Source: Psammoneis japonica (taxonomy: Eukaryota). From it: a stretch of DNA of 64,000 bases. The stretch covers positions 124,001 through 188,000 of the forward strand of contig QPGO01000072.1 of the NCBI GenBank assembly GCA_008632985.1, given 5' to 3'. The notes under the pieces are model-generated. The model made no database searches, had not been told where the DNA came from, and saw only the letters and a list, made by a program, of their open reading frames with translations. This document shows, piece by piece, positions 3,771 to 64,000 of this stretch; the stretch's first letter is position 1; each line of letters opens with the position of its first letter. The position numbers were made by a program, and so were the translations under genes.

Positions 3771-4389
3771 CGCGTGAGAAGTCTGTGTTGTTGTGATTTT
3801 CCGTGGCGCGAAAGGAAGATGACAGTCGGTCTCCGCATCATTCTGATTCTTGTGTCTGCTTTTGGAGAGTTGTCTCAACCTCCTCGTCCCTAAGTGATTG
3901 CGTCAGATTTTCCAAAAAAGTGTTAATTAATTAGTCGGAAAGTCCTCGACTTTCCGAGGGTCTCCCCTAAGTAGAAATCCCAAATGCTGAATTCTGATTG
4001 GCTCTCGTAGCGCCATTCCTAATCCTCCCTCGGGACCGAAAACCCCGTCTCAAATCTGAAATCTGAATCGTGCCACCGGAAAAATCAAAGACCGACATCA
4101 TGACGTTTTCTTGCTAAATAGCTCGAAATCTACTTAATCTTTTTCTCCTTACCTGAAAGCTACTTATTTGTAAGAAAACGAGCTCCCAGTGCAAGAAAAT
4201 CATGGTGGTCATGCGCGCTGTCGCGCGAGTAAGACCCCATGCAGAACAGGTTGTTCGTGCTTTTCTGCATTCTTCGGAGCGACGTGCAGACTATACTGAG
4301 ATTACCCGTAGAAAGCCAGTAGAAACAAGTAAAAAATCTACTTCATTTTTCTCGTAAAAGGGCCAAAATTTACTTTACTTACCCGACAT

Positions 4390-5690
4390 GATGTCAGTTT
4401 TTGAGTTTTTCGGTGGCACTTGTCCAAACATCCAATCTGCAACGTCATCGTCTCGATGTGTCACGGATGCGTCCCTCCGAGAGATTGGCCCAACACCTCA
4501 TCCCCAACAAATTGTCCATGGCCCACGAATGACTGAAAGATCTGACAACACTGTTGTCCAAAACAAGAGCACATTTTTTGGAAAACATGGCGGGAAAGCA
4601 TTGTGAGAAAATTTGAATGGAAAGAATCACAGACAGCACTCAGAAAAGCATGAGAACATTGGAGCTTGTCATTTGGGCTCGCGTGTGGCAGAATGCAGTG
4701 CATGCTCATGCAACGGCTTCATAAAACACGGCAAATGCCAGGACGTCCTCCTTCTTTTTCCCCTCTAAACTCATCACAAATCGCAAAAAGTCCTCGCCCT
4801 CCTCCTGGCTTTTGCCTGTGCTGAGACAGACAAAGTTTGCCGTCTCGTGAGCAATTTGTCATGATGTGGGGCTCCAGAGATCAGAGATGCTCTTGTGTTT
4901 TGTGCAGAGGTGTGACAGTGGCAGGTTTGCCTTTTTGCTGATTGCCAGGTTCTTTGTCTGCTGATTTGCAGTTGGTCTTTCTCTGGCTGGCAATCGACTC
5001 GCATTTGTGCTGGTGCTTGCGCGCCAAATGTCTTCTTAGTTTCCACGCCCGCTTTGCTGATGATTCTGGCGCTGTGCCACAATTTTCTGTTTTGGCTGCT
5101 GCTTGGAAACTGCCCAATCCCAGTCCAGCAAATCCAGGCCCAGCCGATCCAAGTCTGGTGGCGGTGGCCGCAGCACGGCTGTCAGGTCACAGTCAAAATC
5201 CGGTGGCGGCGGCGGAGGAGGAAGCAAGAGCAAATCCGGTGGTGTTGGAGGAGGAGGCAGCAAGAGCAAATCCGGAGGCAGCGGCAGAGGAGGAGGAAGC
5301 AAGAGCAAATCCGGAGGTGGCGGAGGAGGAGGAGGAAGCAAGAGCAAGTCCGGAGGCTGTCACCTTGAGCGACAGCTGGGTTTCCTTTGCTGTGGCGGGC
5401 CTTGTTTCAGCACAAATTGTTGTTTTGTTTTCACTGACATTGTTGCTTTGGTCTGTTTCTTTTTTGCAGGAAGAGTGAGCCACACTTGTGTGGCAGCCAG
5501 GCTTTGGTCAAGTGTTGCAACAAGAAGGGCGGTGGTTGGAGCAGCACCTCAGTTGGTGCACTGGACACACAGGGGTTGCAAATGCATGTGGAAATGGCAG
5601 CTTTTAGATGTTTGGGTGTCATTGTTTTCTTTCTTGACCACAGCTAGGTCATCGCATGGGCACTGATGACAGGAAGCAAGGAGGGCGGGA
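4390..5690. other. TpA-depleted island 1 (hypermutated repeat relic)
   Basis: About 5 TA dinucleotides in ~1.3 kb by eye; TG/CA-rich; ORFs here lack Tyr. Confidence 0.8.
5150..5357 (+). repeat. Minisatellite of 36-39 bp units (GGAGGAAGCAAGAGCAAATCCGG...) reading G-rich SKSKS repeats
   Basis: Four to five visible copies of agcaagagcaaatccgg followed by (ggn)n. Confidence 0.85.
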
Positions 5691-5977: not shown

Positions 5978-7315
5978 ATGCTAAGTAGATTGGTTTCTTT
6001 GCCGCTTCGATTCTTACTCGTCCCCTCAAGCACAGAACCGATCTTTTCTGTGGCGCTCCATCAACAACAGGCGAGCAGCATGTCAACCGCGGCCGCCACA
6101 GCTTACCCTTGGGGCTGTACAGCCTTGGTTGATCCTGATTCGCATGAGGTTCAGATTGAACGACTAGTGGGTTACAAAGACACTGACGCAGACGCTGTTC
6201 GAAGGCTAGATGGCCTGACGAAGCTCCTCGACATGACAAAGAGTCCAGACTGGATGGAGTACATTGAAGTGGCGGAAGATCGAATCAACGATGAGGGTGG
6301 AGCGGGCGCTTACGACACAATGCGTTGTGACATGCTTGTTAATCCAGACCAGAAAGGTTCTAGATGGAACATTTGGGGAGAAGAGTTTCATTTGAATCGA
6401 CTGAGGAACTCGTTTCGATACCTGCTCCATGAGAATGATCCAGAATCGCACGGAACTGTTTCGGAAAGTGCCATTGGGATGGCCATGGAAGACTCCCATA
6501 AGATGCTCAAGCATTTACTTGGCGAGGCAGAAAAGGCAGACATATTTAAAGAAACCCAAGCGGAAGCTTCTAATCAGCAGTTGGAGGACGTTCTCGTCCA
6601 ACCAGTTCGTCTATCCTTGCTGTGGTCCCTTCCCAAGACGTTGAAAGGCCGGGTGGTCGTACGGGGCCATGCTTGCAGCACCACAAAGCCAGTTTTCATC
6701 CATCGACCATCCAAGCCGATTACTGTGACAATTGCTGCCGTTGGTCACAACACAACAACCATGGAGGTTGATGAATCCATGCCAACAAGGCTCCGTGACC
6801 CCCAACACAAGGTTGCTTCGTGGACACGCCTCCGACAGAAAATGGAGAACCCTGAAACGTACATGCCAGAGGGCGTATCCGAAGTACTCATGGTGCGACA
6901 ACGCAAACAAGATGGTGCGTTGGAAGTGCTAGAGGGCCTTACGAGCAACTTTTTTGTCATTTACAAGGACGGAACCATTCGTACTGCGGAGGAAGGAGTG
7001 CTGCATGGATATGCAAGGCACCTTGTTCTTGAATGTGCAGAATTTTGTGGCCTAGTCGTGGATAAGGATAGGCCTATTCTCATGAAAGACTGCACAGATG
7101 GCCTTTGGGAGGAAGCCTTCATTACTTCCTCGTCTCGACTGATCTTTCCAATATCGAAGATTCTCGTTCACACGGACGACAAGACGGACTTTACAGAGTT
7201 TTGGTGCGATCCGGTCCTGACAGAGGCATCCCAAAACCCTGTCAGGAAAGAAAAACAAAAGTGGAGGCAACTGTTGGACGAAATACTGAATCGAGCAGGA
7301 TACCCGGTCTTGTAA
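5978..7315 (+). CDS. PLP-dependent aminotransferase class IV family protein (BCAT/ADC-lyase-like)
   Basis: 445-aa ORF with EGLTSNFF, GVLHGYAR and EAFITSSSR fold-type IV motifs. Confidence 0.85.
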   Translation: MLSRLVSLPLRFLLVPSSTEPIFSVALHQQQASSMSTAAATAYPWGCTALVDPDSHEVQIERLVGYKDTDADAVRRLDGLTKLLDMTKSPDWMEYIEVAEDRINDEGGAGAYDTMRCDMLVNPDQKGSRWNIWGEEFHLNRLRNSFRYLLHENDPESHGTVSESAIGMAMEDSHKMLKHLLGEAEKADIFKETQAEASNQQLEDVLVQPVRLSLLWSLPKTLKGRVVVRGHACSTTKPVFIHRPSKPITVTIAAVGHNTTTMEVDESMPTRLRDPQHKVASWTRLRQKMENPETYMPEGVSEVLMVRQRKQDGALEVLEGLTSNFFVIYKDGTIRTAEEGVLHGYARHLVLECAEFCGLVVDKDRPILMKDCTDGLWEEAFITSSSRLIFPISKILVHTDDKTDFTEFWCDPVLTEASQNPVRKEKQKWRQLLDEILNRAGYPVL

Positions 7316-7580
7316 CAATCTGTCGGCAGAGGCGTGGAAATTAATGTAAACATCTAAAATCTATGTGAATCTACTTCTTATCTACAATAGACAAATGCCT
7401 CCCAGCTCAGCTGTGGATTCGTAAGGCCAATTCGACGTCGCAGCTTTCATTTTTTTTTATGGAATTGAATAACTGGTTTTCCATAAAAATGATGGTCACC
7501 ACGAATAGATCCGCGGCTACCGGTAAATGAAAAGATGGGCCGAGCGGGACAGGAATCGGGACATTGATGCCAACCTGACC
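7205..7580 (+). repeat. Left copy of ~380-bp direct duplication (live aminotransferase 3' end plus dead copy of MMSDH 3' end)
   Basis: Aligns with 9741-10124 from tgcgat(c/t)cggtcctgaca to gacattgat(g/a)ccaacctgacc; MMSDH-derived part has indels. Confidence 0.92.
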
Positions 7581-7589
7581 GAGACCAGA

Positions 7590-8850
7590 AGATGGAACAT
7601 TGAGGAGAAGGTGCAGATGTGGTAAAAGGCACTCTCGGTCTGGGTGTCATGCAGGTGTGTGGGCAGGCAGTTGAGGTTGGTGCGGAACAAAGAGAAGCCT
7701 TTTGCATGAGGCAGGTGTCGGTGAAAGCCAATGCTGCCAACAGGCTGACCACGGAAGCGGAGGCCAGTTGTGATTTCTGGCCCAAGCAGAGAGTTGGCAG
7801 CAGGGCTGAAAAAGGCAAAAGCTTGACACAAGGCATCTGCAGGGGAAATTCTTGGGAGTGGGAGCTGGAGCTGATGAGACACTGGGGAGGCAAGGATGCA
7901 CATCTTTTGGTGGCTGAGTTTTGTGCCATGCTGTGCTGGACTGGCAAATCTGGGTGAGCCACTCAAGAAACCACAGCAGCTCAGCATGTGGCAACCAGTT
8001 GTCAGTGTTGTCCAGCAGGGAAGTTGCAGAAGTTGCATTGGATGGATGAAGACAGGAGTGTGCAGCTCGGCATTGAGAGTGGCTTTTGAGGAGACAACAC
8101 TGAAAAGGCCAGAGCATTGGAGAACGGCGGGCCAAGTGGACAATCTTGGGTGCAAAGCCTTCCAGCAGCAAAAAGGAGTGCCATCTGCTGGAAGCATTGC
8201 AATGCCAGCAGATGTTGGAAGAAGCACAGCAGAGATTGATGAGTGGGAGGGTGGGGCATGGCAAAAAGCTGGGCCAGCATCAGGGAGAGTGCTTCCGGGC
8301 ATGCAAGGTGCTGGGGGAGCACTGTTTGCCAAAAAATGTGGTGGCTGAGGTTGATGGCAAGAAGAGATGGGTTGGGGTGTCTGCACCCTGATGGTGCTCA
8401 ATGTTGGTGTGAGTGGCATGGATGAGGCAGTTGAGGCCTCCTTTGGCCCCTGCCCCGAGTTGCGCCAAGGAACGGCAGACATGCCAGCTGTCTTGGCAAG
8501 GGAGCCCGCCCGCAACACACACCAGACAGTGGCGCCACAGCTGATGGGGTGCAGTTTGTTGGTGTGCAGCTTGTCAAGGTTTGTTTGGTTCTCATGCAAG
8601 GCAATGAAGCAACAGGCTGGTGGGAGTGGGCAGCAGATCTCATTGAAAGCCAAGCTGGCTTGGACGAGGAGGAGTTGTCGAGACGAGAGTTGCGAGGCTG
8701 GGCCTTGTTTGGGTTTTGAGGGATGCAGAGACTTTGAAGAGGGTGCAGGCCTTGAGCTGGTCAGTGGAGTCAGCAAAGGGGGCGTTGGCGGTGCCTGGTT
8801 TGCATTTGCTGAGAGCCGGCAGGAATTGTTCACATCTCTGGAGGGGATTT
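7590..8850 (-). mobile_element. TpA-depleted island 2: probable degenerate non-LTR (CRE/Ambal-like) reverse transcriptase relic
   Basis: Essentially no TA. Minus frame reads CFIALHENQTNLDKLH..LHPISCG..W and AVLLP..GIA, resembling the recalled RT motif YFIALHKD...KLRPIGIG..WRR with Y->C and R->H. Confidence 0.5.
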
Positions 8851-8991
8851 CAAAAGCGAGAGTCCATGCGCGTCTTGCGCGCGACGAGTGAAGGACGGCG
8901 CGCCGAAATTTTTCAACCACAAAAGAAACAACAATTCGGTGCGCTCACACTTTTCACGACGCCAATTCTTGTTTGCTCCATCCACATCATC

Positions 8992-9636
8992 ATGTCGCAC
9001 CGCCGTCAATTCGAGACCGAAACGGACCCGTTCCAGTTTGACAGAAACACTGTCAAGGGTTTCATCATTGCGTCGGATCCTTCTTCACCGGCGTGCGTGT
9101 CTCAATTCAATCGCCCACGCGCTGCTCTGGACATTGAGCAAATTGAGGGCGCCGCGGCACGCAGGATTGCAGATATCACGCGAGCCATGCTCCACAATGT
9201 CTGCGGAAAGGCACTTGTTGTAATGGAGCATAGCAAGCGCGTGACATTGACACCACGCGCTCTGACGTTTGCTCTGAGAGTTTTCGCCGTCGAAGAAAGC
9301 CGCGTGCTTCCCGCGGCCTTGAATCTTCCGCCCCAGGACGAAGCAGCCCAAGATGGAGATGAGGACGAACAGTGGCAGAAGGTGGCAGATGATCTTCAGG
9401 ACTATGACGCCAATGAAGATGTTGTGGGTGAAACCATGCACGAAGAAGACGATCCAGAGGAGGAGGCGTTCTCAGGCAAAAAACACGGCATTTCGCCCAA
9501 GAAAGCCGAGAAATTGTGGATCTGGACGATGATCAAGGAGTACCGCGTCGACTTTTCTGTTCGTAAAAAGAAAGAATTTTACTCTATCTTGGCGAATGCC
9601 ATGAACGGTTACATTCGCATGAAGTTCCTCCGTTGA
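8992..9636 (+). CDS. Divergent histone-fold protein (H4-like domain, acidic linker, possible truncated H3-like domain)
   Basis: MLHNVCGKALVVMEHSKRVTLTPRALTFAL aligns with H4 [30 protein letters not shown]; ATG at 8992, 214 aa. Confidence 0.6.
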   Translation: MSHRRQFETETDPFQFDRNTVKGFIIASDPSSPACVSQFNRPRAALDIEQIEGAAARRIADITRAMLHNVCGKALVVMEHSKRVTLTPRALTFALRVFAVEESRVLPAALNLPPQDEAAQDGDEDEQWQKVADDLQDYDANEDVVGETMHEEDDPEEEAFSGKKHGISPKKAEKLWIWTMIKEYRVDFSVRKKKEFYSILANAMNGYIRMKFLR

Positions 9637-9740
9637 GCCAACTCATGAAGCAGTTTCCGGTGGCATTTAGTTCATACATAACAATGCTATAGTTCCTTTT
9701 TCCAATGTCACTAGGATTTATATGTGTCAAAGAGTTGTAG

Positions 9741-10124
9741 TGCGATTCGGTCCTGACAAACGCATCCCAAAACCCAGCCAGGAAAGAAAAACAAAAGTGG
9801 AGGCAACCGTTGGACGAAATACTGAATCGAACAGGATACCCGGTCGTGTAACGATGTGTCGGCAGAAATACGCGAGCAAATAATAATGTACACATCATAT
9901 ATAATCTATGTGATCTACTTCTTACCTACAATAGGCATGGTAACGCCTCCCAGCTCAGCCGTGGATTCGTATGGCCAATTCGACGTCACAGTTTTCATTT
10001 GTGTATAGAATTGAACACCTTGTTTTCCATAAAAATGAACGTCACCACGAATGGATCCGCGGCTACCGGTAAATGAAAACATGGGAAGCGGGACAGGAAT
10101 CGGGACATTGATACCAACCTGACC
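9741..10124 (+). repeat. Right copy of ~380-bp direct duplication (dead aminotransferase 3' fragment plus live MMSDH 3' end)
   Basis: Direct alignment with 7205-7580. Confidence 0.92.
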
Positions 10125-14868: not shown

Positions 14869-15627
14869 AGTCTTGAAGAACACAAGACCGTCAGAACGAC
14901 ACTATTTCATTTGGCGTTTTATTTTTCTGATGGGGGTAGAACAATGCACTCTGTTGTACGGATCAGTCAAGGGTTCAATAATTCTGAATTCCAAACGTGA
15001 TCAAATGAGCAACGGCAGTGTTATGCTTTCATGCATGGGATATGGTAGTCGCAAGGGGGTCATCACGGTGGGGCAAGTGCCGAAATACACTGTACATGTC
15101 TTATAGAAACTTTTGTTTAAAACGATTGGACTACTCACAAACGCAACCGTAGACTACAGCAGTGCCATGCAGATATCCCAGAGTTTTAGCATCCCACCTC
15201 ATCAAGAGGGAGAGAAAGGACCAAATCGTGCTACGATTCACCGAACCCTTCTGACAATTCATCAACAAAATCAACAAAACTCACAACATTGCTTGACAAA
15301 CACACAACGTCTGCATTCTCTCTCGTGAGCAACTTTGAAGATGCATCTCTTCATGTGGACAACCCACGTGGTGCATGTCTGTTGCTTGGATGGGCAAGAG
15401 GTGAATGGGTTCCATCATCAGGACTCTGGATCACATGCCAGAGCCTTTCACTGTGAGACAACTGCACTGCCATTTCAGAAGCAGCATGGGTGGCTCCACG
15501 AGTGAAGAAAATTGAAGCCCCAAAGACTGATGCTGGAGAGACTGGCCAACAAGCTGTCAAGCATGAAGCACCACAATGTGATTGCAGCCATGGGTGTGGG
15601 AGCCTTGGCGAGTGCTGGGATCCCCAA

Positions 15628-15830
15628 NNNNNNNNNNNNNNNNNNNNNNNNNNNNNNNNNNNNNNNNNNNNNNNNNNNNNNNNNNNNNNNNNNNNNNNNN
15701 NNNNNNNNNNNNNNNNNNNNNNNNNNNNNNNNNNNNNNNNNNNNNNNNNNNNNNNNNNNNNNNNNNNNNNNNNNNNNNNNNNNNNNNNNNNNNNNNNNNN
15801 NNNNNNNNNNNNNNNNNNNNNNNNNNNNNN
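15628..15830. other. Assembly gap (N run)
   Basis: Run of N bases. Confidence 1.
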
Positions 15831-18120
15831 GGGGGGCAAATGACAAGGATGTTTTTGTGTGTGGTTTGCTGGTCTTTGTCATTGTGACAAGTTTTCTCAA
15901 ACTGCCTGTCTTGTCAGAGATTGCTGCTCAGCCAAGAGAGTTGGCTGGTGTGCAGCATCTAGCCTCACAGCTGCTGACATGCAACATTTTGAAACAAGGC
16001 AGCTGTGATGGTGGTCCACCAAAGTTCTGTGGGTTGTGGCCAGGTGAGAGAAAAATTTGTTGTCTCTGCACAACAAAGTCTCTTCACAAAACTTCTCAGC
16101 AGATTCAAGATGAAAGGGCTTTTGAAGAAGCTGCAAAGTCTTGCATTTTTGCTCACTTGATTTGATGGACAACTTCGTGAAATTCCAAGCCACGGCAGTG
16201 GTTTCCCAACCACACCACTTGTTTCCATGACAAAGTGGTTGGATGGAAAGCATTTTGTCAGTGGTGGCACCTCCCATCACACCACTGTCAACATCCTCCA
16301 GTCTCTGGAACTTTGTCTGTGTGTGCCACCTCCTCACTGGCACAAGAACTTGACATGAGCAAGTCATGTGTGCAAAAACACCATTGCACTTTGGGGCCCT
16401 TCACTCTCCACTCTGACTGCCATTGCCACTCAAAAGCTCTGGCTGCTCCGTGGCCCCATCAGGTGCTTTTGTGATGAGCTCCCAGCTGGAGAATGGTGGG
16501 TTCTGCAAGTTGCATCGGCCAGATGATGAATTGTTTGAACCATCTGCACCTGCAAAAAGCAACTTGAGCAACCAGCCAAAGCAAGCGCCGTTGTGCCAGA
16601 TCTGGCACACATGTGAACAACCTGCAGAGAGTGGCACACTCCACATTGTGGATGCTGCTGGCAGCTCCCTCAACCAAGAGAGGGCAGCCCACTCATGTCC
16701 CTGTGATCAGTTCACAGAAGATGATGAATGGAGACTCAAATTGAGGCTCAGATCATGACCTCTTCTTGGGGGAGATGAGGAGGTGCAGTGCAAAGCCCTG
16801 TGGGCCCCATGTGTTGCCATTGGCAAAAGTCCTGAGAGCTTGAAAACAAATGAAAAATCCTGCATTGCAGGAGCAAAATGTGGCACTCACAACGTTCAAA
16901 AATGAGACACACAGAGAGTCAAAGTGGGCTGCATCTCACCAGCTTCATGTGGCTCCCATTGTGCAGCACAGCACACACACAGCAGTCATGACCCATCCCA
17001 TGGATTTTTCATCTCCTGAGAAAGCAGTGCCAGCAGCCTGCTCCAGCTCTGGGTGGAATGATTTTGGATGTTCTTGCACTCCTGACAAAAAAAATCTTTC
17101 TCAAACACTCACCTCCTCCACAATGTGAGTTTTCAAAAGAAAGGCATGCAGTCACATGGAACAACACAACACTTTGCATGTGACAAAAAGTCTTGCTTTG
17201 TTTGAAAATGTCAAAGTCAAAGCAAAGAGCAGATTGACAAGATGTGATTTTGCCAAGTGTCCCAAACTGCATGGTTTTGGACCACCACACCTGGAGTCAG
17301 AGCAGGCCCAGCACCTGCTTCAGCAACAGCGCTGCTGGAGCAATCCAACGGCAGCTGCAAAAATCCTCCAGTTGCTCAGCCAGCAGTCATCATGCCATGC
17401 TGCTGCCAGCATGGTGGTGAGGAAGGTCAAAGCTGACAAAGTGTGGGCATGGTGGCACAAGAGGGGCAAGCAGCAGCAGCATCTTTCTCAAGGAGCTGGG
17501 TGAGCAGAAATGGCTGGAGTGCTGGTGGTTTGAAAAAACAGAAGGGAAGCTTCCAGCTCAGTGCTTGATGCAGCTGACAAGGTGGCAGATGCACCAACTG
17601 CAGAGAATGCCAAGGAGCTTCTTCACATGCTTTTTGCAGAGGCCTGCTTGGGTGTTTGTTGTTGACTTGGGGTTGCATCAGCCTTCGTGCGCCTCCTTTG
17701 CAGAACTGTGTCTCAGTGCAAACCATCAGATGATGGAGGAACCCCAATGCATCTGGGCTCCGGAGCTTGTGTTTGTTGTTTGCACATCCAAGTGTGCAAA
17801 GGGCTGATCAAGAAAACACACAATGGCCAAAGTTTGCAGCAAATTGAAAGCACACACACTGCTTTTTCCAAACAAAATTGGAGTGGGGGACACACACACA
17901 TCTGATGATGAAAATGTTTGTTTGATGGTGTGATGCCACCCAGTCTGCTTTCAGGTGACATCTTTGATGGCTGGAGTTGGTTGGAGCAGCAGGGGCTGCA
18001 AATGTGGAGTTTACATTTGCTCAATTGTGGCTGTTGCCTCTGGTTGTCAAAGCTGTCTTTGACATCTGCCTTGTCACTGACAACAAACAAGTTGACAAGA
18101 CACAACTGAAGCCTTGGCTT

Positions 18121-18420
18121 TTCTCATCAGGAGAGAGAATTCTTCCCCCATCTCTGATGTGCCAGAGGGGCACATTGCTTGTGGGAGCTTCTGTGCTCAT
18201 GGGATGAGGATCTTGGAACTTTCTTTGTTTAAAAACAAAGGTGCAAAGTGCAAACTTCATTGGAAAAGACAGCTCAAACAGGGCTGCTCTCTCTGATGTT
18301 CAGTTGGACAGCTGCTGGGGGCTCTGGCTCAGCATGTGGCATTGTTGATTGCCACGGGGTTGGTGTGGGTGTCAATGTCATGCATCAGCAGCTTGCAATG
18401 TGCAGCACATGATGCAAGAG
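18121..18420 (+). repeat. ~300-bp dispersed repeat, copy 1 (copy 2 at 20613-20938)
   Basis: Shared blocks cttgtgggagcttctg, gatcttggaac, aacaaaggtgcaaagtgcaaactt, gcaatgtgcagca..tgatgcaagag. Confidence 0.85.
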
Positions 18421-19839
18421 TGTGCGATCCATTCAACAGCAACACTTTGCAATGTTTTTGTGTTCCTTGCAGCAAATGAAGTGAGCACAGCAACAGATGC
18501 TTTTGATGAGGAAATGAGAATGCTTGCACCAACATGTTTGCAAGTGACTTGCAACCTTGACACTCAAACTTTTGGCTTGTGCTCTGAGCTTCTGCCAGAG
18601 TGCAACATCTGGCTTTGCTCAGGCCACATTGCTGGACAGATCCCACACACTCCACTGCTGCTGCTGCTGCTGCCACAGCAGCAGCTGACAGATCAGGAGC
18701 GCACTGTTGGACAGATGTTTCAGACCTGCAAATGGATGTGCTGTGGAATGCATGCTGATGCAATGCATTCCCTGAGATGCAAAGAGAGAGTGCCACTCAT
18801 GGCAAGATCTTTGTCCAGGTGGTGTTCACATGTTGGCACAACGTTGCAGCCTTCTGAGACATTTGGTCCCATTGCCTGGCTTCCAATGATGGAGAAATTC
18901 CCTCAAGATGATTCAAGAAGCAAGAGTGCATGCAGAGCACCAGACCCTGTCAGAAACAGACAGCTCATGACATTGGCTGCTTCCTCATTGAAACATTGCA
19001 TCAAAATCAAAGTTGATGCCACAAAAAGACACACGCAGCACAGGGCCAATGCAACCATGCAATTCACGTCCTCAGGGGTCACTGCACCACAAACTGTGGG
19101 AATTGGGGACAACCACAATGGGGTGCACAACACCGCAAGCAACCATGTTGCATTGCCTGTCAGTGGGGAAAATTCATCAACAAATGAGTGCAAAATGAGG
19201 GTGTGAAGAACAGCCAAGATGCCATTTGTCACAACTGTGGCTTTGGCAGTGCACAGAGAATGACAAGCCTGCTGCTGAGAGTCCATCTCAAAGGGACTTT
19301 CCTGCACATCAAGCAACAATGCTGCAGCTGTCCTTGTGCACTTTCAGCGCTCTTCCATTGCTTTCCAGTGTGCTGCACTTTCAGCTGCACTCAGTCAAGG
19401 TCAGCTGCATTGTGCAAAATCTGGCCAGATTGCATTTCTGTGGATGGAGGGAAGTTGCTCAGGGGGTCATTGTGGCACAATCATTCACTTTGCATTAAAT
19501 GTGTGTTCCACCATGAGTGCAAAGATTGTCAAATTGTCATGACAGTCATTGTGGCTCACCATTTTAACAACTTGCATCATTGGGCGGGGCCAACATCACT
19601 CAAAACACCACCTCAAAGAGAAAACACAGAGAACTTCTTCTCCTCACAATCTCAATTTGGTCGCTGCAACACTGGCACCCGGAATTGCCCCAACCCCCTT
19701 TGTTCATCATCACACTTTGTCTCTTGACTGCACTCTGGAGGACATTGTGACACGCTTCCTCTCTGCGCTGAAGAGAAAAGACATGTTGGATGCCTCAAGC
19801 ATGTCATTGTCCTTGTCCTTGTCATCCTCATTGCATGAA

Positions 19840-20590
19840 GAGGACATTCTGTTTGCTCCAACTCCAGCTCTGGCAATTGTGGGAGTGGTTGACTTTTGCA
19901 AGAGCACTGAACAAAAGCTCTTCCAAACTGGTTTGGAAGAGCTGAGTGGAGAGATGTTCAACTGCACTCCAGGCAAACTCTTTCAGTTCCTCAAGAATGT
20001 CAACAACAGGGCCAGCTTGCTTGGATGGAATGACCTGGTCATGGGAATTTTCACAACACCCCCAAGGACCCTGATGACCCCAATGCAGTGCACTCAAACC
20101 TGATCACCAGTTGTGGTGAGATCAGCTTGGAGCACATCAAGAAACACCAGGAGCTGCACATGAGGATGAACCCTTGTTGTGCAGCCCAAAACACCACCAT
20201 GTTTGGACACTGTCTCATTGGTTTGATCTCCAAGAGTGGAAAGGAAAAGATGCACATCCATGACAAGTCCTGAAAGGCTGGAGACAAGATTTCTGGCTGT
20301 CTGCTTCTTGAGGTCAACACTCAAGAGTCATGCCTTGATGCAAACATGACCATGAGCATGATCTGTGTGAAACTTGTGGAGTTCTTTTGTCGACACTTGC
20401 CCACAATTGGTTCACAACATTGCAAAGTTCAATCAGCATGGCTCTCCTCCCCTCATGGCATTGAGGTCTCATGGCAAAACCATGATGGAAGACCTCCTGA
20501 CAAATCTGTTTGGAGGGCACTTGGCTGCTTCTGACAAGAGCTTTGTCAAGTGCACTGGAAACAAGCAAGAGGAACAAGTTGACAAGATTG
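19840..20590 (+). mobile_element. Diatom Copia (CoDi-like) gag relic, frameshifted
   Basis: FAPTPALAIVGVVDF..KLF..FNCTPGKLFQFLK..RA..GW, NLITSCGEISLE, EDLLTNLFGGHLAASDKSFVKC resemble recalled CoDi gag segments. Confidence 0.7.
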
Positions 20591-20612
20591 TGCAAGTGTC
20601 AAGCCCCAGCTC

Positions 20613-20938
20613 TTCTCACCCGGAGAGAGTGGCACTCTCCCCCGTGGCTCTGATGTGCTGTGCTGAAAGGGGCACATCACTTGTGGGAGCTTCTGCACTC
20701 ACAGGATGAAGATCTTGGAACATGTTTTTGCCCAAGCAACAAAGGTGCAAAGTGCAAACTTTGTCAGGAAAAACAGCTCAATCAGGGTCAGTCTTTCTGA
20801 TGTTCAGTCAGCCAGCTGCCTGCTGGGAGCTCTGGCTCACATGGTGTTGTTGTTTGCCATGGGGTTGATGCTGGTGTCGATGACATGTTTGTCAAAGCAT
20901 CTGCTGCAGCTGGCAATGTGCAGCATGTGATGCAAGAG
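20613..20938 (+). repeat. ~300-bp dispersed repeat, copy 2
   Basis: Aligns with 18121-18420; begins where the gag relic ends. Confidence 0.85.
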
Positions 20939-21477
20939 CTCGCAACACTTGTGCTTGGGCTCAACAAAGATGGAACATGCCAACATGTCCCACCAAATTC
21001 CAAGGCTTTGGCCTCTCTCTCTCCTGGTTGAGTGTTTGGTTTGAAGTGCAAAAACCGCAGCTCCTGCCCTGTTGCCTGTTGAGAACAACATTGCCTTGAG
21101 AGGCAGACAAGCTCTTGACATGTCATGTTGGGCCATTTTGAGTCACAGACTTGGGGTGTCAGTGGCCCACTCTCCTTGTGGTTGGACATGCCAGCTGCTT
21201 TGCTGTTTTGCACACGCAAAAAGCACGTGTCTCTGCAGCGTGGATGTTTCGCCATGTGGCATCATTTTTGACAGTGCCCAGCTCACCCCAGCTGACAGTT
21301 TGCACATGCAAAAGTTCACAAGGAGGCCTGCACACAGCCCTGGAAGAAGCCCCTGCAACCAAGCATGGCGCGTTGATGCTGTGCCCTTGTTTTTCGCTGT
21401 GTGCTGCCCACACTCATTGACAGGATTTAAACAAGATTGACCAACTCGATTAAATCCGACCCATCAACCTGAAAAAT

Positions 21478-21541
21478 TGCGATACCCAGGAATCGAACCT
21501 AGGTCCTCTTATAACCGGTTACCGACTAAACCATTTACCGC
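21478..21541 (-). ncRNA. tRNA-like Pol III unit in the 3' LTR (anticodon arm reduced)
   Basis: GCGGTA/TATCGC acceptor stem, A box TGGTTTAGTCGG, T arm CTAGG-TTCGATT-CCTGG, then a TTTTT run. Confidence 0.75.
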
Positions 21542-21978
21542 TTTCTTCAAACTGACAGGCTTTTTGTACATAGTCACACATGTTTCAGCCAGAGAGTGAC
21601 ATACACCTTTAATTCTTCTTAGAATTCTGTCACTCCCCATATGTCACGAAGCTGTCTGACGTCACGAAGCTGTCTGACGTTCCTTTCTTTGGACAATGAT
21701 ACTTCTCACAGCTCCCCTTCTACCTGGGCCACATTTTTCTGCACATGTCATGACCTCCCCGGCGAACTGATAATTGGGCGGCCATTCCGGCCTCGGCATC
21801 CCTAATAAGAGCACTATGTGCATCGTCGGTCTGTCTCACCGCAGCCTCTCCTCAGTTTTAGAGTCATCTTGAAGGAGCACACACACCTAGGTTCAAATCA
21901 TCAACGGTCCTCGCACCATGACAGGATTTAAACAAGATTGACCAACTCGATTAAATCCGACCCATCAACCTGAAAAAT

Positions 21979-22043
21979 TGCGATACCCAGGAATCGAACC
22001 TAGGTCCTCTTATAACCGGTTTACCGACTAAACCATTTGCCGC
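21979..22043 (-). ncRNA. tRNA-like Pol III unit in the 5' LTR
   Basis: Same as the other LTR, with a perfect D stem GTTT/AAAC. Confidence 0.75.
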
Positions 22044-22134
22044 TTTCTTCAAACTGACAGGCTTTTTGTACATAGTCACACATGTTTCAGCCAGAGAGTG
22101 ACACACACCTTTAATTCTTCTTAGAATTCTGTCA

Positions 22135-22490
22135 CTCATCCTCTCATCCAGCACTGCCACAACCCCCAAGTTTGCTTTGAAGAAACTTGGAAAAGGAGAC
22201 AAGGCTTTCCATTGCTGCTGAGAGAAGCCATCATTGAACAGCTCTTGGAGCCACGCAAAGAGCCCAAAGACAGTGGGGGGGGGGGGGGGCGGGAGTTTGA
22301 CGAACCTTGGCCTTGGCGTGGGTGCTTTGAGGACACTTCTTGCCACTTCTTGGCTCTGAGGATTGCCAAGCCTGCTGTTACAGTGCACCAGCAGCACACA
22401 AACCTCATGCTCCTGCCTGCAGACTCCACCAAACTTGCCTCACAACCACCTGCCTCTGTTGGGGCGGCTTGGCCCTCATGCATGCTCTGC
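22135..22490. other. Continuation of TpA-depleted island 3 beyond the TRIM
   Basis: About 1 TA in ~350 bp, then an abrupt return to TA-rich sequence. Confidence 0.8.
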
Positions 22491-23219
22491 CTAGACTACC
22501 TGCCGCAGGTGGAGCTTCTATGTACCGGTGCCGGCATCTCCGTGTCTGTTTCGTAATCTCTTGGCATCAATTATCATATATTCCGCTCTGAGGATGAACA
22601 TCTAAAAAGTTTCGTTGAGCGTTAGCAAAGTACTGTACTAAAGTATCGGTACATTATTATCGGAATCATCGTTTTATAAACCTATGACTATGTAGGTACT
22701 AAATACGATTTTGAAATCTTATTTAAAAATATTCATGCACTAAGAAGGCGAGATTTATTTGCCGTTCATGATTACCTTCATTATATAATAAATGTTAATA
22801 TATGCGGATGATTATATTTTTTTGCCGCAACGCACATAGGAAAACTCCAAAACAGAAGCGTGGCGATTGACGATGTTGTGGCTAATTTCTAATGCGCTGT
22901 CAATACTGTATAATTGCATTAACTTTGACTTCATTGTGTGGGCGAGCTGCAGATCACTCGATGGTGTCTAGTTGTGACAGTCGCTGTAAAAAAAGATCTT
23001 TCGGCTGCCGTCTTTGATGCGCCGCATCTCGATTCTATCATTTTTGCATCATGTGCGTCACATACATCATTGTCTAACGGAACGAAGGCCGCCTTGTTTT
23101 TTGAATTCAGATTTTGGTGCATTTCACCGTTTGAATCGATAGCTTTTTTCGTTGTTTCGCCGTTTACTCCTGAACTGTGCCGCACACAATTTTTGCAAAG
23201 TTCGTACCGTTTCGCAATC

Positions 23220-23955
23220 ATGACGAACAACCACTCGGATCCTTTTGACAATGGCGGGGACTTCGATACACTGAAAAAGCGTATTCAGCAGATGGAGCAC
23301 GATCATGCCAAGATGGCTCAGATGGAGAAGGATTATGCCAAAAATGTTCGCATGATGAAAGGCGTGTTTGGCAATCTCGAAAAAGCCGCTGCGGAGAAAC
23401 GAGACTTGGAGCAAAAGATCGAGGACAAGGACAGAGAAGCTCAAGAGAAAGACAAGATCATCAAAGACATGACCGCACGTGCCGAAGACATGGCCGCCAC
23501 CAGCAAGACGGAAGTCGAGGCTCTCGTGGCTTTCAACAGTGAGTTGGAGCAAGAAGTCCAGGAGAAGAACAGAGAAGCTCAAGAAAAAGACTGGAGCCTC
23601 CAAAACATGACCGAGCGCATGGAAACCATGGCCGCCGTCATGAAGAATGATCGTGAGGAAATGGAGTCTCTCCGGGAACAAGTTCCTGAATATTTGCAGG
23701 CTGTGAAGGATGGGTTGACTACTGATGTCACGGAGTGCGTTGGGGATCTCGTTGGCAATGCCTTCGCCAGTGTCACCCCACCCAGTTCTGTTGCGCGGCT
23801 TATGGCGGAGCCGAAAAAGAGGAGCCGAGATGAAAATCAAGATGTTTACGCCGCAGTCACCCCCCAAGAAGCAACGTACCGATACATCCCCTGAACTTCC
23901 GTCGGAGCTGGAGGAGGAGAAGAAGGAGGAGACGGATGACGGTGACATTTCGTAG
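23220..23955 (+). CDS. Hypothetical coiled-coil protein with an internal ~41-aa duplication; likely frameshift at a C run near 23862
   Basis: LEQKIEDKDREAQEKD..MAA and LEQEVQEKNREAQEKD..MAA repeats; alternative-frame tail PKKQRTD...EEEKKEE. Confidence 0.6.
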
Positions 23956-47749: not shown

Positions 47750-48045
47750 CTTGATAGATATACTTTACGCGCTCTTGTGTCTCAAACAATGCAAGAGGGT
47801 GTATAGCGAGAGGGAGAAGTTACAGTTTGTGGCAACAGGTTGCGCCGCTTCTCCTCTCGTGGGGTGTTGTCTGTGTTGTTCTTGGAGAAGGCTTTGGAAA
47901 AACAGCATGCACGACAAACACGCGCGTTCGTGCGTGGATGACGGACAGAGGCGAGGCTAGAGGGGATGAGAAATCCCCGCCCTCTAGCCCCCCCCCCTGG
48001 TCTGCCTGCTCCCTCTTCCCCCATTTTAACTGAGGCACACCATAC

Positions 48046-49470
48046 GAGCGCGAGACTGAAGTTCCTTGGCCCTTCCACTTCCTCTGCTGATGGATCCCTT
48101 GTTGTTGCTTTGCTCAACAATGATGGCATCTTCCTTCTTCCTTTTGCTGTTGATGGCCTTGGTGTGGTCTCGGATTCTTTGCTGACCACCTTCTCTTCAG
48201 CTCTGCATTGTTCTCCATCCGATCTCAACCCAAGCCTCCCTGGTCCTCTCCTTCTGACCTTTGGTGCTCTGATGCTTCCCATTCTGCCTTTCTCTGTGCC
48301 TTTTCCTCTCCGTCTGCCCTTCTCCCTTTGGCTGATTTCACGCGGTGTCGCCTGTCCTCTCTGACCACTTTGGCAGCACTTGTCGCACTGCCCCCCCCTC
48401 CTGGTGGGCCCTTCAAGCTCTCAGCTGCAATGTGGCTCTTCATCCATCCATGCACACCCTCCAATTTACTTCCTCTCTTCCTGCTCCTTCATCTCCTCCC
48501 ATGCCATTGACCAAATGCCCTTGTCCCTGCATCTGGCGAGCTGCCTTCGTGCCTCCCTCAGCTGTTCCCTTCCATTCCATGTGAGCTCTTCATGACTCTG
48601 CACTTTAAAAAAGTCAGCCGAATGACTGTCTTTTGCCCTTTTGGAACAGCGTGCTTTGCCGCCATGACGGCAAAAATCCCGCTGCAGATCAATGACGAAA
48701 CCACTCTTTCAGACAAGGGGCAGCAAGGAAGAAGGTTTGCAGTGGCACACAGCACCTTTTTCCATTCTGCCAATGCTGCTGCACAACAACTGGCAGAGAG
48801 AAAGAAGAAGGAGGGGGGGGGGGGCGTGAGTGAGAGACAACCACGCTGTGCCGCGCAGGCCATTTCCGCTGCTCTTGCTCACCTGCTGGCAACAACAAAT
48901 TTGATGACAGTCACAGAAAAGCACCATTGCATGTGACATTTGGAAAGTCTGTCAGAACATTGGGGTGAAAGGTGGTTTGTTTCACAGCAGCAGCACACAA
49001 AGACAGACAAAAGAGTGCTGCAGCAAGTGGCTTGCTGACAACCATTGATCATGTGGCAAACTCTGTTTGCACAACTCATGATGGGTTGCAGGTCTTGTGC
49101 TCACTTTTTAGCTTCTACAAAAAGCACACAAAATGCAAACAGCAGCACAGCCAGCAGAGCCAAAGTCAAACAGAGGGTCGAGTGGGGGCTGAGGAAAGCA
49201 AGGGCTGAGGGTTGGCCAGAAGGACACTGCCCAACAGACAAAGCTTTCAGACATTCTGTGCATTGGCACTAAACAGGAATGAGAACACGTGTCAAAGCTG
49301 TGTGCTTTGCTGTGCTTTGTTTGCTGCGCACCTGTGTTTGTTCTTCTTTCCTCTTGTGGCGCCAGGGGGTGTGAGCTGGGCACAAACTTTTGCACAGCTC
49401 AGTTGTTCCCTCTGGGGGTGCAAACTTTTCCACTGGCTCAAATGTCAAACAGGCAGTGGCATCACTGTTT
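48046..49470. other. TpA-depleted island 4 (unidentified degenerate repeat)
   Basis: About 5 TA in ~1.4 kb by eye; TG/CA-rich; G and C runs. Confidence 0.85.
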
Positions 49471-60552: not shown

Positions 60553-61965
60553 GATAGACGGTGAAAAAGAAACGCGCGACTGCATTCGAATCATTGTCTG
60601 AAAACGTGCTCCGCAATGCTAACGCCAGCCCGCGTGTTCCGTTTGCCGCTATACGGGTATAGCCGCCGTCCACGGACTGCAAACATCATTGGATGAACAA
60701 TGATTGTTACTTACAAGCGTGTCTCAATGCGTTTGATGTTCCTGAAATCGTTCTTGATGTAGAGTTTTCTGATCGTTTCTTTGTCTCTTTTTCTATTTTT
60801 ATGAGAAGGGTGGTTCGACACCAAGTATAACATCGGGTTGTTCTCGTTCTCCGGTGATATTTCAAGAGTCATGAATAGCTATATGTTTCCGGATACAATG
60901 TTCTTTCAATGTTCATGAAGGTGTGGCACAGGACTTGCAAGAACGCTTTGGCGGGAATGGCGTCTCGGATTTCTCTGGACCGGAAGATCTCTAGGTTTCC
61001 CGGATAGTTCAATTCATACAGAGTGAGTCATGTGTTTCCCGGATAATTAGTAGAAGACTGTTCTGTCAACATTCAGGAACGTTTCATCCCTGAGAATAAT
61101 GTTTTGGGAGAAGCGAAGCGCTTTAATGTCCACGAAGGTGCGGCACAGGACTTGCAAGAACGCTTTTGCGGGAATGGCGTCTCGGATTTCTCTGGACCGG
61201 AAGATCTCTAGGTTTCCCGGATAATCCAATTGATACAGAGTGAGACATAAGTTTCCCGGATAATTAGTAGAAGAATGGTCATTCAACATTCGCGAACTTT
61301 TCATCCCTGAGAATAATGTTTCGAGAGAAGCGAAGCGCTTTACTTTTTTGCGAAGCGAAGCCGTCTCTTTTGCGAAGCCGTCTGTCCTGCAGCCGCCGGG
61401 CCCTCCACATGTACCGGTATCATACAGTACTTCTGCTCTTTTTTTTTGCTTTTCTCTACTCTAAAAGCTTCAGATGGGCTTGATAGGCGTCAATGGCAAT
61501 GCATGATAGTGCAAACAGAGAGTAATAGAGGCTTTGTATGGCTTTGGGTTCACTTCAAGCAATTTGCAGTCGAAGTACATAACATGCGAACTACTGTACT
61601 CAGCACTTGCAGAACGCTCCTACTATAGTACGTTAGAACATCCTACCTTTAATCTGAGATATTACTTCTAACGGGATGATATTGTCTGGAATACAATATA
61701 ACTTCAGGTTCGACACGGTTGATAAGTCGATAGACGGTTAAAAAGAAGCGCGCGACTGCATTCGAATCATTGTCCCAACACGTGCTCCGCAATGCTAATC
61801 CCCAGCCCGCCTGTTCCGTTTGCCGATATAGCCATCATCCAAGGACTTCGAACATCATTGGGTGAACAATGAGTGTTACTTACAAGCGCGTCCCACTGCG
61901 TTTTAATGAAATCGTTCTTGATGTAGAGCTTTCTGATCGTTTCTTTGTCTCTTTTCTTTTTATGA
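60553..61965 (+). repeat. Compound repeat: ~240-bp direct repeats (60553-60803, 61729-61965) enclosing a 217-bp tandem duplication (60908-61124, 61125-61342)
   Basis: Direct visual alignment (cgcgcgactgcattcgaatcattgtc; ggcacaggacttgcaagaacgcttt). Confidence 0.88.
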
Positions 61966-62321
61966 CAACCCTCCGAGTCGGTGCCTTATAATCGCTCCGA
62001 AAGGATTAAATAGCTGAAAACCATAAAAAGTGTACTTAGTCTCGATTGGTTCCCTGTACTTACTTTAAACGAAATCTACAACTCGGCATACTCGCCACGA
62101 ACGATCGAAGGGGCTAGTAATCGCCGAAAACGATTGCCATACTCGATCGTATACCGGTACCAGGTATACCTAGACAAATCGTCAACGCTACGTAGTTTTC
62201 GCTTTTTGTAATACATGTGCTGTAATAATGTGTAGTAACAGAATAGGAAGGAGTAGCTGAGCGAGACGCCAAATACAACTATCAATTCGTCCGAGAGTCA
62301 AACTACAACTCGACAATGGCG

Positions 62322-63399: not shown

Positions 63400-64000
63400 G
63401 AGTTTGAAGACGGACCACATCCGTCACAGACTTGTGGCTTGCTGTTTTCACCATGGTGAAGCGTGGTGAAATTCAGGAAAAATGATGCAAAAAATGAGCT
63501 GTTCGGCAGAATTCAAGCTAAAAAAGTGGCAACCGGCCACCCTTGAGACTCCTGATTGCCAGTGACTTCACCACTCAGAGTGCAGTGAGGGCACGCAATG
63601 CTTTGGGTGGTGGGCCACATCCTGCGCTCGGGGCCATCTTCGCTGTGCTGCGACAAAATGCTCATGACCCAAAACAGCTTTCTTTCTCTCACAGGGGAAT
63701 GAATCACAAAAAAATCACAAATGAAAGCTTTGGGACAAAAAATTGGCATCCCAGATTCCACTGGAATGTCTCTCCTGATTTTGGTGAAGAAGAAGCGGGG
63801 GGGGGGGCACAGTGACGCTCCCAGCTTTCAGGGGGCCCCCTCCTCACTGCAGCTCTGCTTGTGCAGCAGCGACCCTCTTTTTTGTGGCTGCTGCTGCACC
63901 TGGATGGCAGTGACTGCAACAAGATCTGTCTTGGAGTTGGCTGACAAAAAAAAGAAATCGTGAGCCAAGAAGAGCCCCAGGGAAAGCAGGCTTGCTTGCT
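63400..64000. other. TpA-depleted island 5 (runs off the window end)
   Basis: About 1 TA in 600 bp by eye; TG/CA-rich. Confidence 0.85.

What the first reader, a model, noticed from the sequence alone, without database searches (positions are those of the whole stretch)
21418..22134. Young LTR pair caught in the act: both substitutions are TA->TG/CA
Seen: the TRIM keeps normal TA/CG content although both flanks are TA-free, so it inserted after the flanks were mutated. Its LTRs, identical at insertion, differ by ccattTAccg vs ccattTGccg, gtgacaTAcacc vs gtgacaCAcacc, and one T indel. The first change breaks a pair in the tRNA-like acceptor stem, suggesting TA is ancestral. Both are A->G in a T-A-Y context on one strand or the other. 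Inference: the process is ongoing and position-dependent. Only two events, so weak alone.
Basis: partly seen in the sequence, partly recalled or inferred. Interest (0 to 1): 0.8.

Follow-up and report, generated by a model that had tools for sequence, protein, structure and literature searches.

The report
Young retroelement with two TA-site changes
A tiny, recently inserted retrotransposon sits inside a stretch of diatom DNA that has lost all its TA dinucleotides, and the only two base differences between its twin end-repeats are at TA sites, which hints, on just two events, that the TA-erasing mutation process was still at work after it arrived.

Summary
Window 21418-22134 is a 717-bp minus-strand TRIM: 215/216-bp LTRs, TG..CA ends, 5-bp duplication CTCAT, PBS and a short PPT. 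Its LTRs carry a degenerate tRNA-like module (Helenus/TRIMp3 type). The LTRs differ by two transitions (TA/TG at 21537/22039, TA/CA at 21602/22104) and one T indel.

The TRIM has normal TA and CG content. It lies in a ~7-kb island with TA o/e 0.01, CG 0.12 and TG/CA about 1.9. The island's TA+CG loss equals its TG+CA gain, and repeats inside it differ by TG<->CA doublets, so TA and CG were converted in place.

The chance that both LTR differences toggle TA is 0.013-0.06. TA-ancestral polarity is favoured by the tRNA-like stem at site 1 and by the island's near-absence of regained TA (p=0.025). It could not be settled by a family consensus: the window holds no other copy, no genome is held, and two metagenome scans found nothing.

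TpA-only A/T->G/C regional hypermutation was shown experimentally in Bigelowiella natans (2026 preprint). This window is from a diatom. I read the finding as a probable but unproven (n=2) trace of that kind of process acting after insertion.

The parts
21413..21417 (.). target-site duplication CTCAT, left copy
   Evidence: Read from the sequence. It is identical to 22135-22139.
21418..21632 (-). LTR of 215 bp (the 3' LTR in the element's own minus-strand orientation); it carries TA at both variable sites (21536-21537 and 21602-21603)
   Evidence: It starts TGACAG and ends CTGTCA, a 6-bp terminal inverted repeat.
21478..21541 (-). tRNA-like module in the left LTR: acceptor, D arm and T arm (GGTTCGATTCC) with a truncated anticodon arm, followed on the minus strand by T5 (complement of 21472-21476)
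   Evidence: Rfam RF00005 matches model positions 1-71 at 17.5 bits, E=1, below the gathering score of 29. ARAGORN finds no tRNA.
21633..21638 (-). short polypurine tract GGGGAG directly upstream of the 3' LTR (minus strand)
   Evidence: Read from the minus strand.
21633..21918 (-). internal region of 286 bp, with an exact 18-bp tandem duplication and no long ORF
21900..21918 (-). primer-binding site TGGTGCGAGGACC... abutting the 5' LTR (minus strand)
   Evidence: Read from the minus strand. It begins TGG directly after the LTR's terminal CA.
21919..22134 (-). LTR of 216 bp (the 5' LTR in the element's orientation); it carries TG at 22038-22039, CA at 22104-22105 and the extra T (22020-22022)
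22135..22139 (.). target-site duplication CTCAT, right copy
15233..21417 (.). left part of the TA- and CG-purged island that received the TRIM; it includes an assembly gap of N at 15628-15830
   Evidence: In 15961-21417 there are 4 TA against 1279 TG+CA. TA o/e is 0.01, CG 0.12, TG 1.90 and CA 1.85.
22135..22480 (.). right part of the island, up to a sharp switch to TA-rich DNA near 22490-22520
   Evidence: There is no TA in 22138-22378, and CG o/e is 0.22. TA positions are listed.
18086..18420 (+). repeat inside the island, paired with 20573-20938 at 74% identity, whose copies differ by TG<->CA doublets
   Evidence: 9 of 12 isolated two-base differences are TG<->CA.

Best explanation
A non-autonomous LTR retrotransposon of TRIM size, with a degenerate tRNA-derived module in each LTR (Helenus/TRIMp3 type), integrated into a diatom chromosome and made a 5-bp duplication. 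Its target was an island in which essentially every TpA, and most CpG, had been converted to TpG or CpA. Because the TRIM still has normal TA and CG content, it most likely arrived after the bulk of that conversion. Since integration its two LTRs have diverged at two bases, and both are TpA in one LTR and TpG/CpA in the other. I read both as TpA->TpG/CpA changes in the right-hand LTR. That is A->G on one strand or the other in T-A-Y context, made at the DNA level by the same TpA-directed process that emptied the island. An adenine-deamination type mechanism is an inference. The mutation type matches the region-bound TpA hypermutation measured in Bigelowiella natans. The process would therefore have been active after the insertion and able to reach DNA placed inside an island. 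Shown here: the element's anatomy, the differences, the island signature, and conversion in place. Inferred: the polarity of the two changes, their cause, and that the process continues today.
For: Conversion in place: the island's loss of TA+CG (0.0933 of dinucleotides) equals its gain of TG+CA (0.0957). An intra-island repeat pair differs by TG<->CA in 9 of 12 isolated doublets, against 1 of 10 in three non-island pairs. TG 639 and CA 640 show no strand clustering (runs z = -0.31). Both LTR differences toggle TA: chance is 0.026-0.06, or about 0.013 against the window's background of 6 of 64. Polarity: site 1 keeps a U-A pair of the tRNA-like acceptor stem only in the TA-bearing LTR. If the changes were instead TG/CA->TA, the LTRs would show 2 new TA per 58 TG+CA sites while the island shows 4 per 1279 (conditional binomial p=0.025). 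Context: 4 of the 5 TA left in the island are YTAR, p 0.003-0.016. The island's TGY fraction (0.549) and RCA fraction (0.577) fit a T-A-Y preference model (0.553) better than a no-preference model (0.504). Both LTR sites are non-YTAR. Precedent: in B. natans mutation-accumulation lines, 230 of 231 mutations in two hypermutable regions were A->G or T->C, and all of these fell on TpA.
Against: There are only two events. The pattern was noticed after the island hypothesis existed, and if CpG toggles had also counted as a hit the chance rises to about 0.09 (my arithmetic from the site counts). No family consensus or second copy polarises the sites. The tRNA match is below Rfam's threshold, ARAGORN finds nothing, and the folds are no better than shuffles, so the stem argument is soft. 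The T-A-Y evidence rests on 5 sites and a model with a coding-DNA baseline. If the rate were as high as in B. natans (about 6e-7 per site per generation), a TRIM with 35 intact TA would be only thousands of generations old, which is a narrow window. No island ORF shows viral or transposon ancestry (0 of 87 reach a Pfam cut-off), so the targeting rule is unknown.
Confidence: 0.58

Rival explanations
1. Coincidence. The two differences are ordinary background transitions of either polarity that happen to fall on TA/TG and TA/CA sites, and the island-making process had stopped before the TRIM arrived.
For: n=2. Under a context-free model the chance is 0.026-0.06, which is not negligible for a pattern looked for after the fact. 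The TRIM's TA o/e (0.65) equals the genome's (0.61), so there is no visible purge. The 4-5 TA regained in the island are about what background C->T would give over an LTR-age time span (my rough estimate).
Against: The empirical background is 6 of 64, which gives about 0.013 for two of two. The reverse polarity is disfavoured (p=0.025). The context and stem arguments point the same way.
Confidence: 0.3
2. Reverse polarity. The right LTR keeps the ancestral TG and CA, and the left LTR gained two TA by C->T (G->A) at CpA/TpG, a RIP-like or plain deamination change.
For: The LTR has as many TG/CA sites that can become TA (27-29) as TA bases that can be lost (24-28). C->T is usually the commonest mutation (general knowledge).
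Against: The island has 1279 TG+CA sites and was exposed at least as long if the TRIM post-dates the purge, yet it holds only 4 TA (p=0.025). The G at 22039 breaks a stem pair that the A at 21537 keeps. TA is depleted in this DNA, not enriched, which is the opposite of RIP.
Confidence: 0.07
3. Artefact. The differences, or even the islands, come from assembly errors: haplotype mosaics in a diploid diatom, collapsed repeats, or base-calling errors at modified bases.
For: An assembly gap lies inside the island (15628-15830). I have no reads. Modified bases can cause systematic C->T or A->G miscalls on some platforms (recalled, not tested).
Against: A 203-N gap of estimated size suggests paired-read scaffolding rather than raw long-read consensus (inference). 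The island signature is complete over 6 kb and has sharp edges. Real TpA hypermutation of this kind was verified by Illumina resequencing in another alga.
Confidence: 0.04
4. The LTRs were never identical. The differences arose during reverse transcription or from an unrepaired heteroduplex at integration.
For: Reverse transcriptases are error-prone (general knowledge). The T-run indel is a typical slippage error.
Against: Three errors in about 430 copied bases is far above usual error rates (general knowledge). It gives no reason for both substitutions to sit on TA. Editing of the RNA template itself cannot make the two LTRs differ, since both are copied from the same U3-R-U5 (established LTR replication scheme).
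Confidence: 0.01

Closest known systems
Region-bound TpA hypermutation in Bigelowiella natans (Mettrop et al., bioRxiv 10.64898/2026.01.13.699255). I read the abstract, the Results, the Discussion and searched passages.
   Same: The changes are A->G/T->C only at TpA, giving TpG or CpA according to strand. They are confined to particular regions next to normally mutating DNA. The long-term trace is TpA-depleted, CpA+TpG-enriched clusters, many without annotation.
   Different: That work is in a chlorarachniophyte; this window is from a diatom. There the targets are integrated giant-virus and virophage DNA that still holds 3.3% or more TpA; here the islands are fully purged (TA o/e 0.01), show no recognisable viral or TE protein and are also CpG-depleted. 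CpG, LTR elements and 3' context are not mentioned in its text. Ongoing activity is measured there and only inferred here from two sites.
Helenus / TRIMp3, TRIMs with a tRNA-like sequence in the LTRs (Kojima 2024, PMC10886601). I read the abstract, sections 3.1 and 3.5, and a term search.
   Same: A short non-autonomous element with two LTRs, PBS and PPT, a 5-bp duplication as in fungal and plant Helenus, and a tRNA-derived piece with GGTTC (box B) in each LTR that is not a functional tRNA.
   Different: Helenus is reported from fungi, animals and plants. The words diatom, stramenopile and oomycete occur 0 times in that paper. Here the anticodon arm is truncated, box A fits only partly, and only one copy is available.
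Repeat-induced point mutation (RIP) of fungi
   Same: A transition-only, dinucleotide-specific mutation process that degrades particular genomic regions and leaves sharp compositional islands.
   Different: RIP makes CpA->TpA and so enriches TpA. Here TpA is erased and CpA/TpG enriched, the opposite direction.
CpG decay by 5-methylcytosine deamination
   Same: CpG->TpG/CpA with a matching rise in TG/CA. The big island has CG o/e 0.12.
   Different: It does not touch TpA. CG depletion varies between the islands (56 CG in the TA-free run 7624-9174 against 7-18 in the four runs of the big island), while TA loss is total in all of them. Neither LTR difference is at a CpG.
ADAR-type A-to-I hypermutation of retroelement or viral RNA
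   Same: A->G changes with a preference for a 5' U/T.
   Different: Editing of the RNA template would be copied into both LTRs alike, so it cannot produce LTR-to-LTR differences. ADAR's preferred 3' neighbour is G (recalled), whereas the hints here point to a 3' pyrimidine.

Membership tests
TpA-directed regional hypermutation (B. natans type) | Substitutions are almost only A->G/T->C at TpA | tested here: inconclusive
   2 of 2 LTR substitutions toggle TA with TG/CA. Polarity is favoured but not proven. n=2.
TpA-directed regional hypermutation (B. natans type) | Long-term trace: TpA depletion coupled to CpA+TpG enrichment in clusters | tested here: met
   TA o/e 0.01 and TG/CA 1.90/1.85 in the island. 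Loss 0.0933 against gain 0.0957. TG<->CA doublets in 9 of 12.
TpA-directed regional hypermutation (B. natans type) | Restricted to regions, with normal DNA alongside | tested here: met
   13 TA-free runs of 250 bp or more, forming about six islands, in a window whose other DNA has TA o/e 0.61.
TpA-directed regional hypermutation (B. natans type) | Targets are of foreign (viral or transposon) origin | tested here: inconclusive
   0 of 87 island ORFs of 70 aa or more reach a Pfam cut-off; 2 weak chance-level hits. The sequence may be too degraded to tell.
TpA-directed regional hypermutation (B. natans type) | New mutations observed in real time (mutation-accumulation lines) | not testable with these tools
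   No reads, lines or genome are held.
TRIM / Helenus (TRIMp3) | Two LTRs, under about 1 kb in all, no coding capacity, TG..CA ends, target-site duplication | tested here: met
   717 bp, LTRs of 215/216 bp, TGACAG...CTGTCA ends, 5-bp CTCAT on both sides.
TRIM / Helenus (TRIMp3) | PBS next to the 5' LTR and PPT next to the 3' LTR | tested here: met
   On the minus strand, TGGTGCGAGGACC lies directly after the LTR and GGGGAG directly before the other LTR. The PPT is only 6 nt.
TRIM / Helenus (TRIMp3) | tRNA-derived sequence with boxes A and B in the LTR | tested here: inconclusive
   Rfam tRNA gives 17.5 bits against a gathering score of 29. ARAGORN finds none. GGTTCGATTCC is present, box A reads TAGTC..GG against TRGCY..YGG, and a T5 run follows.
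TRIM / Helenus (TRIMp3) | A dispersed multi-copy family | not testable with these tools
   No second copy in the window, no genome, 0 hits in two metagenome scans.
RIP | CpA->TpA, giving TpA excess | tested here: not met
   TA o/e is 0.01 in the island.

The most novel reading that the evidence does not exclude
A diatom runs a still-active, region-bound DNA mutator that converts the A of T-A-Y to G on either strand. It erases TpA from silenced DNA completely, alongside slower CpG decay, and has begun to hit a retroelement that landed inside such a region. This would be a second, phylogenetically distant occurrence of the B. natans type of TpA hypermutation. It would come with a refined sequence context, a target with no viral hallmarks, and a natural insertion clock for measuring the rate.
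Probability: 0.4. Interest if true: 0.8.

Novelty: new member of a known kind. Interest (0 to 1): 0.55.

Why it matters
TpA-specific, region-bound A->G hypermutation of nuclear DNA has one description so far, a 2026 preprint on a chlorarachniophyte. That is the only relevant paper in my searches. Finding its full long-term signature in a diatom would suggest the mechanism is widespread among algae, or arose more than once. A young insertion inside a purged island acts as a natural timer. If many such LTR pairs show TA-only differences, they give the current rate, the sequence context (T-A-Y is hinted here) and the targeting rule (place versus sequence) without any experiment. On its own this single pair is weak evidence.

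Tried and rejected
Family consensus. BLAST of the TRIM against the window gave only chance matches of 35 nt or less. No whole genome is held. Exact-pattern scans of the metagenome collection with the LTR-end+PBS 23-mer and the tRNA-like 22-mer gave 0 loci each. The best protein relatives are 88% identical or less, so this species is probably absent from the collections.

tRNA status. ARAGORN found 0 genes. Rfam was empty at E<=1 over 4 kb and sub-threshold over 761 bp. Single-strand folds do not give a cloverleaf, and z is about -1.1. I therefore call the piece tRNA-like only.

Origin of the islands. Pfam was run on 23 and then 87 island ORFs, and on neighbouring ORFs. Nothing viral or transposon-like turned up. 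The 475-aa ORF at 7517-8944 looks like low-complexity read-through, which is possible because TAA and TAG cannot occur in TA-free DNA.

Strand-clustered events. A runs test on TG versus CA order showed no clustering.

Spill-over at island edges. The repeat at 7195-7580, which abuts an island, has 19 TA and 19 CG against 24 and 24 in its partner. That is too small a difference to interpret.

I considered whether the window is B. natans itself and rejected it: the FtsH and desaturase relatives are diatoms.

Full report
THE ELEMENT

The window holds direct repeats at 21418-21635 and 21919-22137.
- The LTRs are 215 and 216 bp. They begin TGACAG and end CTGTCA.
- The 5-bp target-site duplication CTCAT lies at 21413-21417 and 22135-22139.
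- The element is oriented on the minus strand. There, TGGTGCGAGGACC... follows the 5' LTR directly as a primer-binding site, and GGGGAG precedes the 3' LTR as a short polypurine tract.
- The 286-bp interior has no long ORF and contains an exact 18-bp tandem duplication.

Each LTR carries, in the element's orientation, a tRNA-like piece followed by T5. It has an acceptor arm, a D arm and a T arm (GGTTCGATTCC), but a truncated anticodon arm. Support for a tRNA origin is only partial:
- Rfam's tRNA model scores 17.5 bits (gathering score 29, E about 1).
- ARAGORN finds nothing.
- Folding energies do not differ from shuffles.

This anatomy is that of 'Helenus' TRIMs (TRIMp3), described from fungi, animals and plants with 5-bp duplications in fungi and plants (Kojima 2024, PMC10886601; I read the abstract and sections 3.1 and 3.5). 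That paper does not mention diatoms or stramenopiles.

THE DIFFERENCES

The LTR alignment has 219 columns, two substitutions and one gap.
- Substitution 1: A at 21537 against G at 22039 (TTTACCG / TTTGCCG).
- Substitution 2: T at 21602 against C at 22104 (CATACAC / CACACAC).
- Indel: TT against TTT at 21519-20 / 22020-22.

The left LTR has TA at both sites, and the right LTR has TG and CA. If TA is ancestral, both changes are A->G after T and before a pyrimidine, on the plus and the minus strand respectively.

THE SETTING

The genes in the window point to a diatom.
- Domains found include HA, TPR, DM13/DOMON and a cytochrome-b5 desaturase.
- The desaturase is at most 56% identical to its relatives, whose few named sources are mostly diatoms.
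- An FtsH fragment is 79-88% identical to its relatives, whose named sources are diatoms: Cylindrotheca, Nitzschia, Pseudo-nitzschia and Chaetoceros.
- No hit reached 100% identity, so the species itself seems absent from the collections.

Most of the window has TA o/e 0.61 and CG 1.04. From about 15233 to about 22480, however, TA o/e is 0.01, CG 0.12, TG 1.90 and CA 1.85. The TRIM interrupts this island with 35 TA (o/e 0.65) and 28 CG (0.82).

Smaller TA-free stretches lie at 4381-5605, 7624-9174, 23335-23691, 48044-49109 and 63520-64000. Their CG content varies: 56 CG in the 1551-bp run 7624-9174, against 7-18 in the four runs of the big island (728-2052 bp each).

THE ISLAND WAS MADE BY MUTATION IN PLACE

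Three results support this.
- The dinucleotide budget balances: TA+CG falls by 0.0933 and TG+CA rises by 0.0957 relative to non-island DNA.
- Two copies of a repeat inside the island (18086-18420 and 20573-20938, 74% identical) differ by TG<->CA in 9 of 12 isolated two-base differences. The figure is 1 of 10 in three non-island repeat pairs. This is expected if each ancestral TA or CG was resolved independently to TG or CA in each copy.
- TG (639) and CA (640) are equal and are not clustered by strand (runs z = -0.31). The hits were therefore independent and fell on both strands.

No island ORF matches a protein family (0 of 87 above cut-off), so I cannot say what the islands once were.

ARE THE TWO LTR DIFFERENCES PART OF THAT PROCESS?

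Chance. Counting every possible substitution in the LTR, the probability that two differences both toggle TA with TG/CA is 0.026-0.028 if two-thirds of substitutions are transitions. It is 0.06 if all are transitions. Empirically, 6 of 64 isolated single differences in three non-island repeat pairs are such toggles, which gives about 0.013 for two of two. If toggles of CG had also been counted as a success, the model figure rises to about 0.09 (my arithmetic).

Polarity. No other copy exists in the window, no genome is held, and two metagenome scans returned nothing. Two indirect arguments favour TA as ancestral.
- At site 1 the TA-bearing LTR keeps a U-A pair in the tRNA-like acceptor stem. 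Rfam aligns model positions 1-71 to that LTR but only 8-63 to the other.
- If the changes were TG/CA->TA, the LTRs would show 2 such events per 58 sites. The surrounding island, exposed at least as long if the TRIM post-dates the purge, shows 4 TA per 1279 TG+CA sites (p=0.025).

Context. Three observations hint at a T-A-Y preference.
- 4 of the 5 TA left in the island are in Y-TA-R context (three are TTAA), the one context with no T-A-Y on either strand (p = 0.003-0.016 by the null used).
- The TRIM's own TA are enriched in that context (9 of 23 unique sites against a 15% baseline, p=0.005).
- The island's TG are followed by a pyrimidine in 54.9% of cases, and its CA are preceded by a purine in 57.7%. 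A T-A-Y preference model predicts 55.3% and a no-preference model 50.4%.

Both LTR sites are non-YTAR. These context results are post hoc and rest on small numbers or on a coding-DNA baseline, so I treat them as hints.

WHAT IS KNOWN

Six usable literature searches found one relevant work: Mettrop et al. 2026, bioRxiv 10.64898/2026.01.13.699255. I read the abstract, the Results, the Discussion and searched passages.
- In B. natans mutation-accumulation lines, two integrated viral regions mutate about 1000-fold faster than the rest of the genome. Of their 231 mutations, 230 are A->G or T->C, and all of these fall on TpA.
- The genome holds 124 TpA-depleted, CpA+TpG-enriched clusters, mostly unannotated.
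- An ADAT2-like deaminase is proposed as the agent.
- The text does not mention CpG, LTR elements, diatoms or a 3' context.

The mutation type, its regional confinement and its being ongoing are therefore already described, in a distant lineage. The diatom case, the completeness of the purge, the accompanying CpG loss and the T-A-Y hint are additions.

WEIGHING

The coherent reading is that the TRIM landed in an already purged island and has since taken two TpA->TpG/CpA hits. Four points count against over-reading this.
- There are two events, and no direct polarisation.
- The tRNA argument is sub-threshold.
- At B. natans rates (about 6e-7 per site per generation) an element with 35 intact TA would have to be only thousands of generations old. 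Either the process is much slower or episodic here, or we are seeing a narrow time window.
- 'Position-dependent' is not shown. If targeting is by sequence rather than place, the TRIM could even predate the purge and the two hits would be spill-over.

RNA-level editing can be excluded as the source of LTR-to-LTR differences, because both LTRs are copied from the same template segments (established replication scheme). I put 0.58 on the TA-directed reading, 0.30 on coincidence, and the rest on reverse polarity, artefact and reverse-transcription error.

VERDICT

The kind of process is known from one recent preprint in another alga. This is a probable new instance in a diatom, and the TRIM is a diatom example of a known TRIM type.

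Noticed in passing
window 4381-5605, 7624-9174, 15233-22480, 23335-23691, 48044-49109, 63520-64000: At least six TA-free islands lie in 64 kb, about a fifth of the window. TA loss is total in all of them, while the CG count varies from 56 in the 1551-bp run 7624-9174 to 7-18 in the four runs of the big island. TA loss and CG loss therefore look like two separable processes. Two islands sit between divergently oriented genes.
   Followed up: partly
window 15960, 18012, 18230, 19496, 19565; island 15961-21417: 4 of the 5 TA surviving in the big island are in Y-TA-R context (three are TTAA). TG-Y and R-CA are over-represented in all or most islands. Both observations fit a T-A-Y preference of the TA-erasing process. 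The B. natans preprint's text does not describe this context.
   Followed up: partly
window 21478-21541 and 21979-22043 (minus strand): The TRIM's LTRs contain a degenerate tRNA-derived module followed by T5. [quoted passage not shown]
   Followed up: partly
window 7195-7580 and 9731-10124: Two direct repeats, 86% identical, bracket the TA-free island 7624-9174. Both keep normal TA content right up to the island edge, so the edges are sharp. Each starts with TGGTGCGA, the first 8 bases of the TRIM's primer-binding site.
   Followed up: partly
window 7517-8944 (minus strand): A 475-codon open frame runs through a TA-free island. It has no Pfam match and a low-complexity P/S/L/H/C-rich translation. 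TA-free DNA cannot contain TAA or TAG, which inflates ORF lengths and could mislead gene callers.
   Followed up: partly
window 15628-15830: A 203-base run of N (assembly gap) lies inside the big island.
   Followed up: no
window 22275-22289: A G15 homopolymer lies in the island flank just right of the TRIM.
   Followed up: no
window 60553-61968: A cluster of short repeats lies outside any island: 60905-61125 and 61122-61342 are tandem at 91% identity, and 60553-60807 and 61729-61968 are 84% identical. I used them only as a background mutation sample.
   Followed up: partly
window 9148-9279 (plus strand, within ORF 8647-9636): A weak histone-fold match (Pfam Histone, E=2.8e-4, below the cut-off) lies at the right edge of the island 7624-9174.
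   Followed up: no
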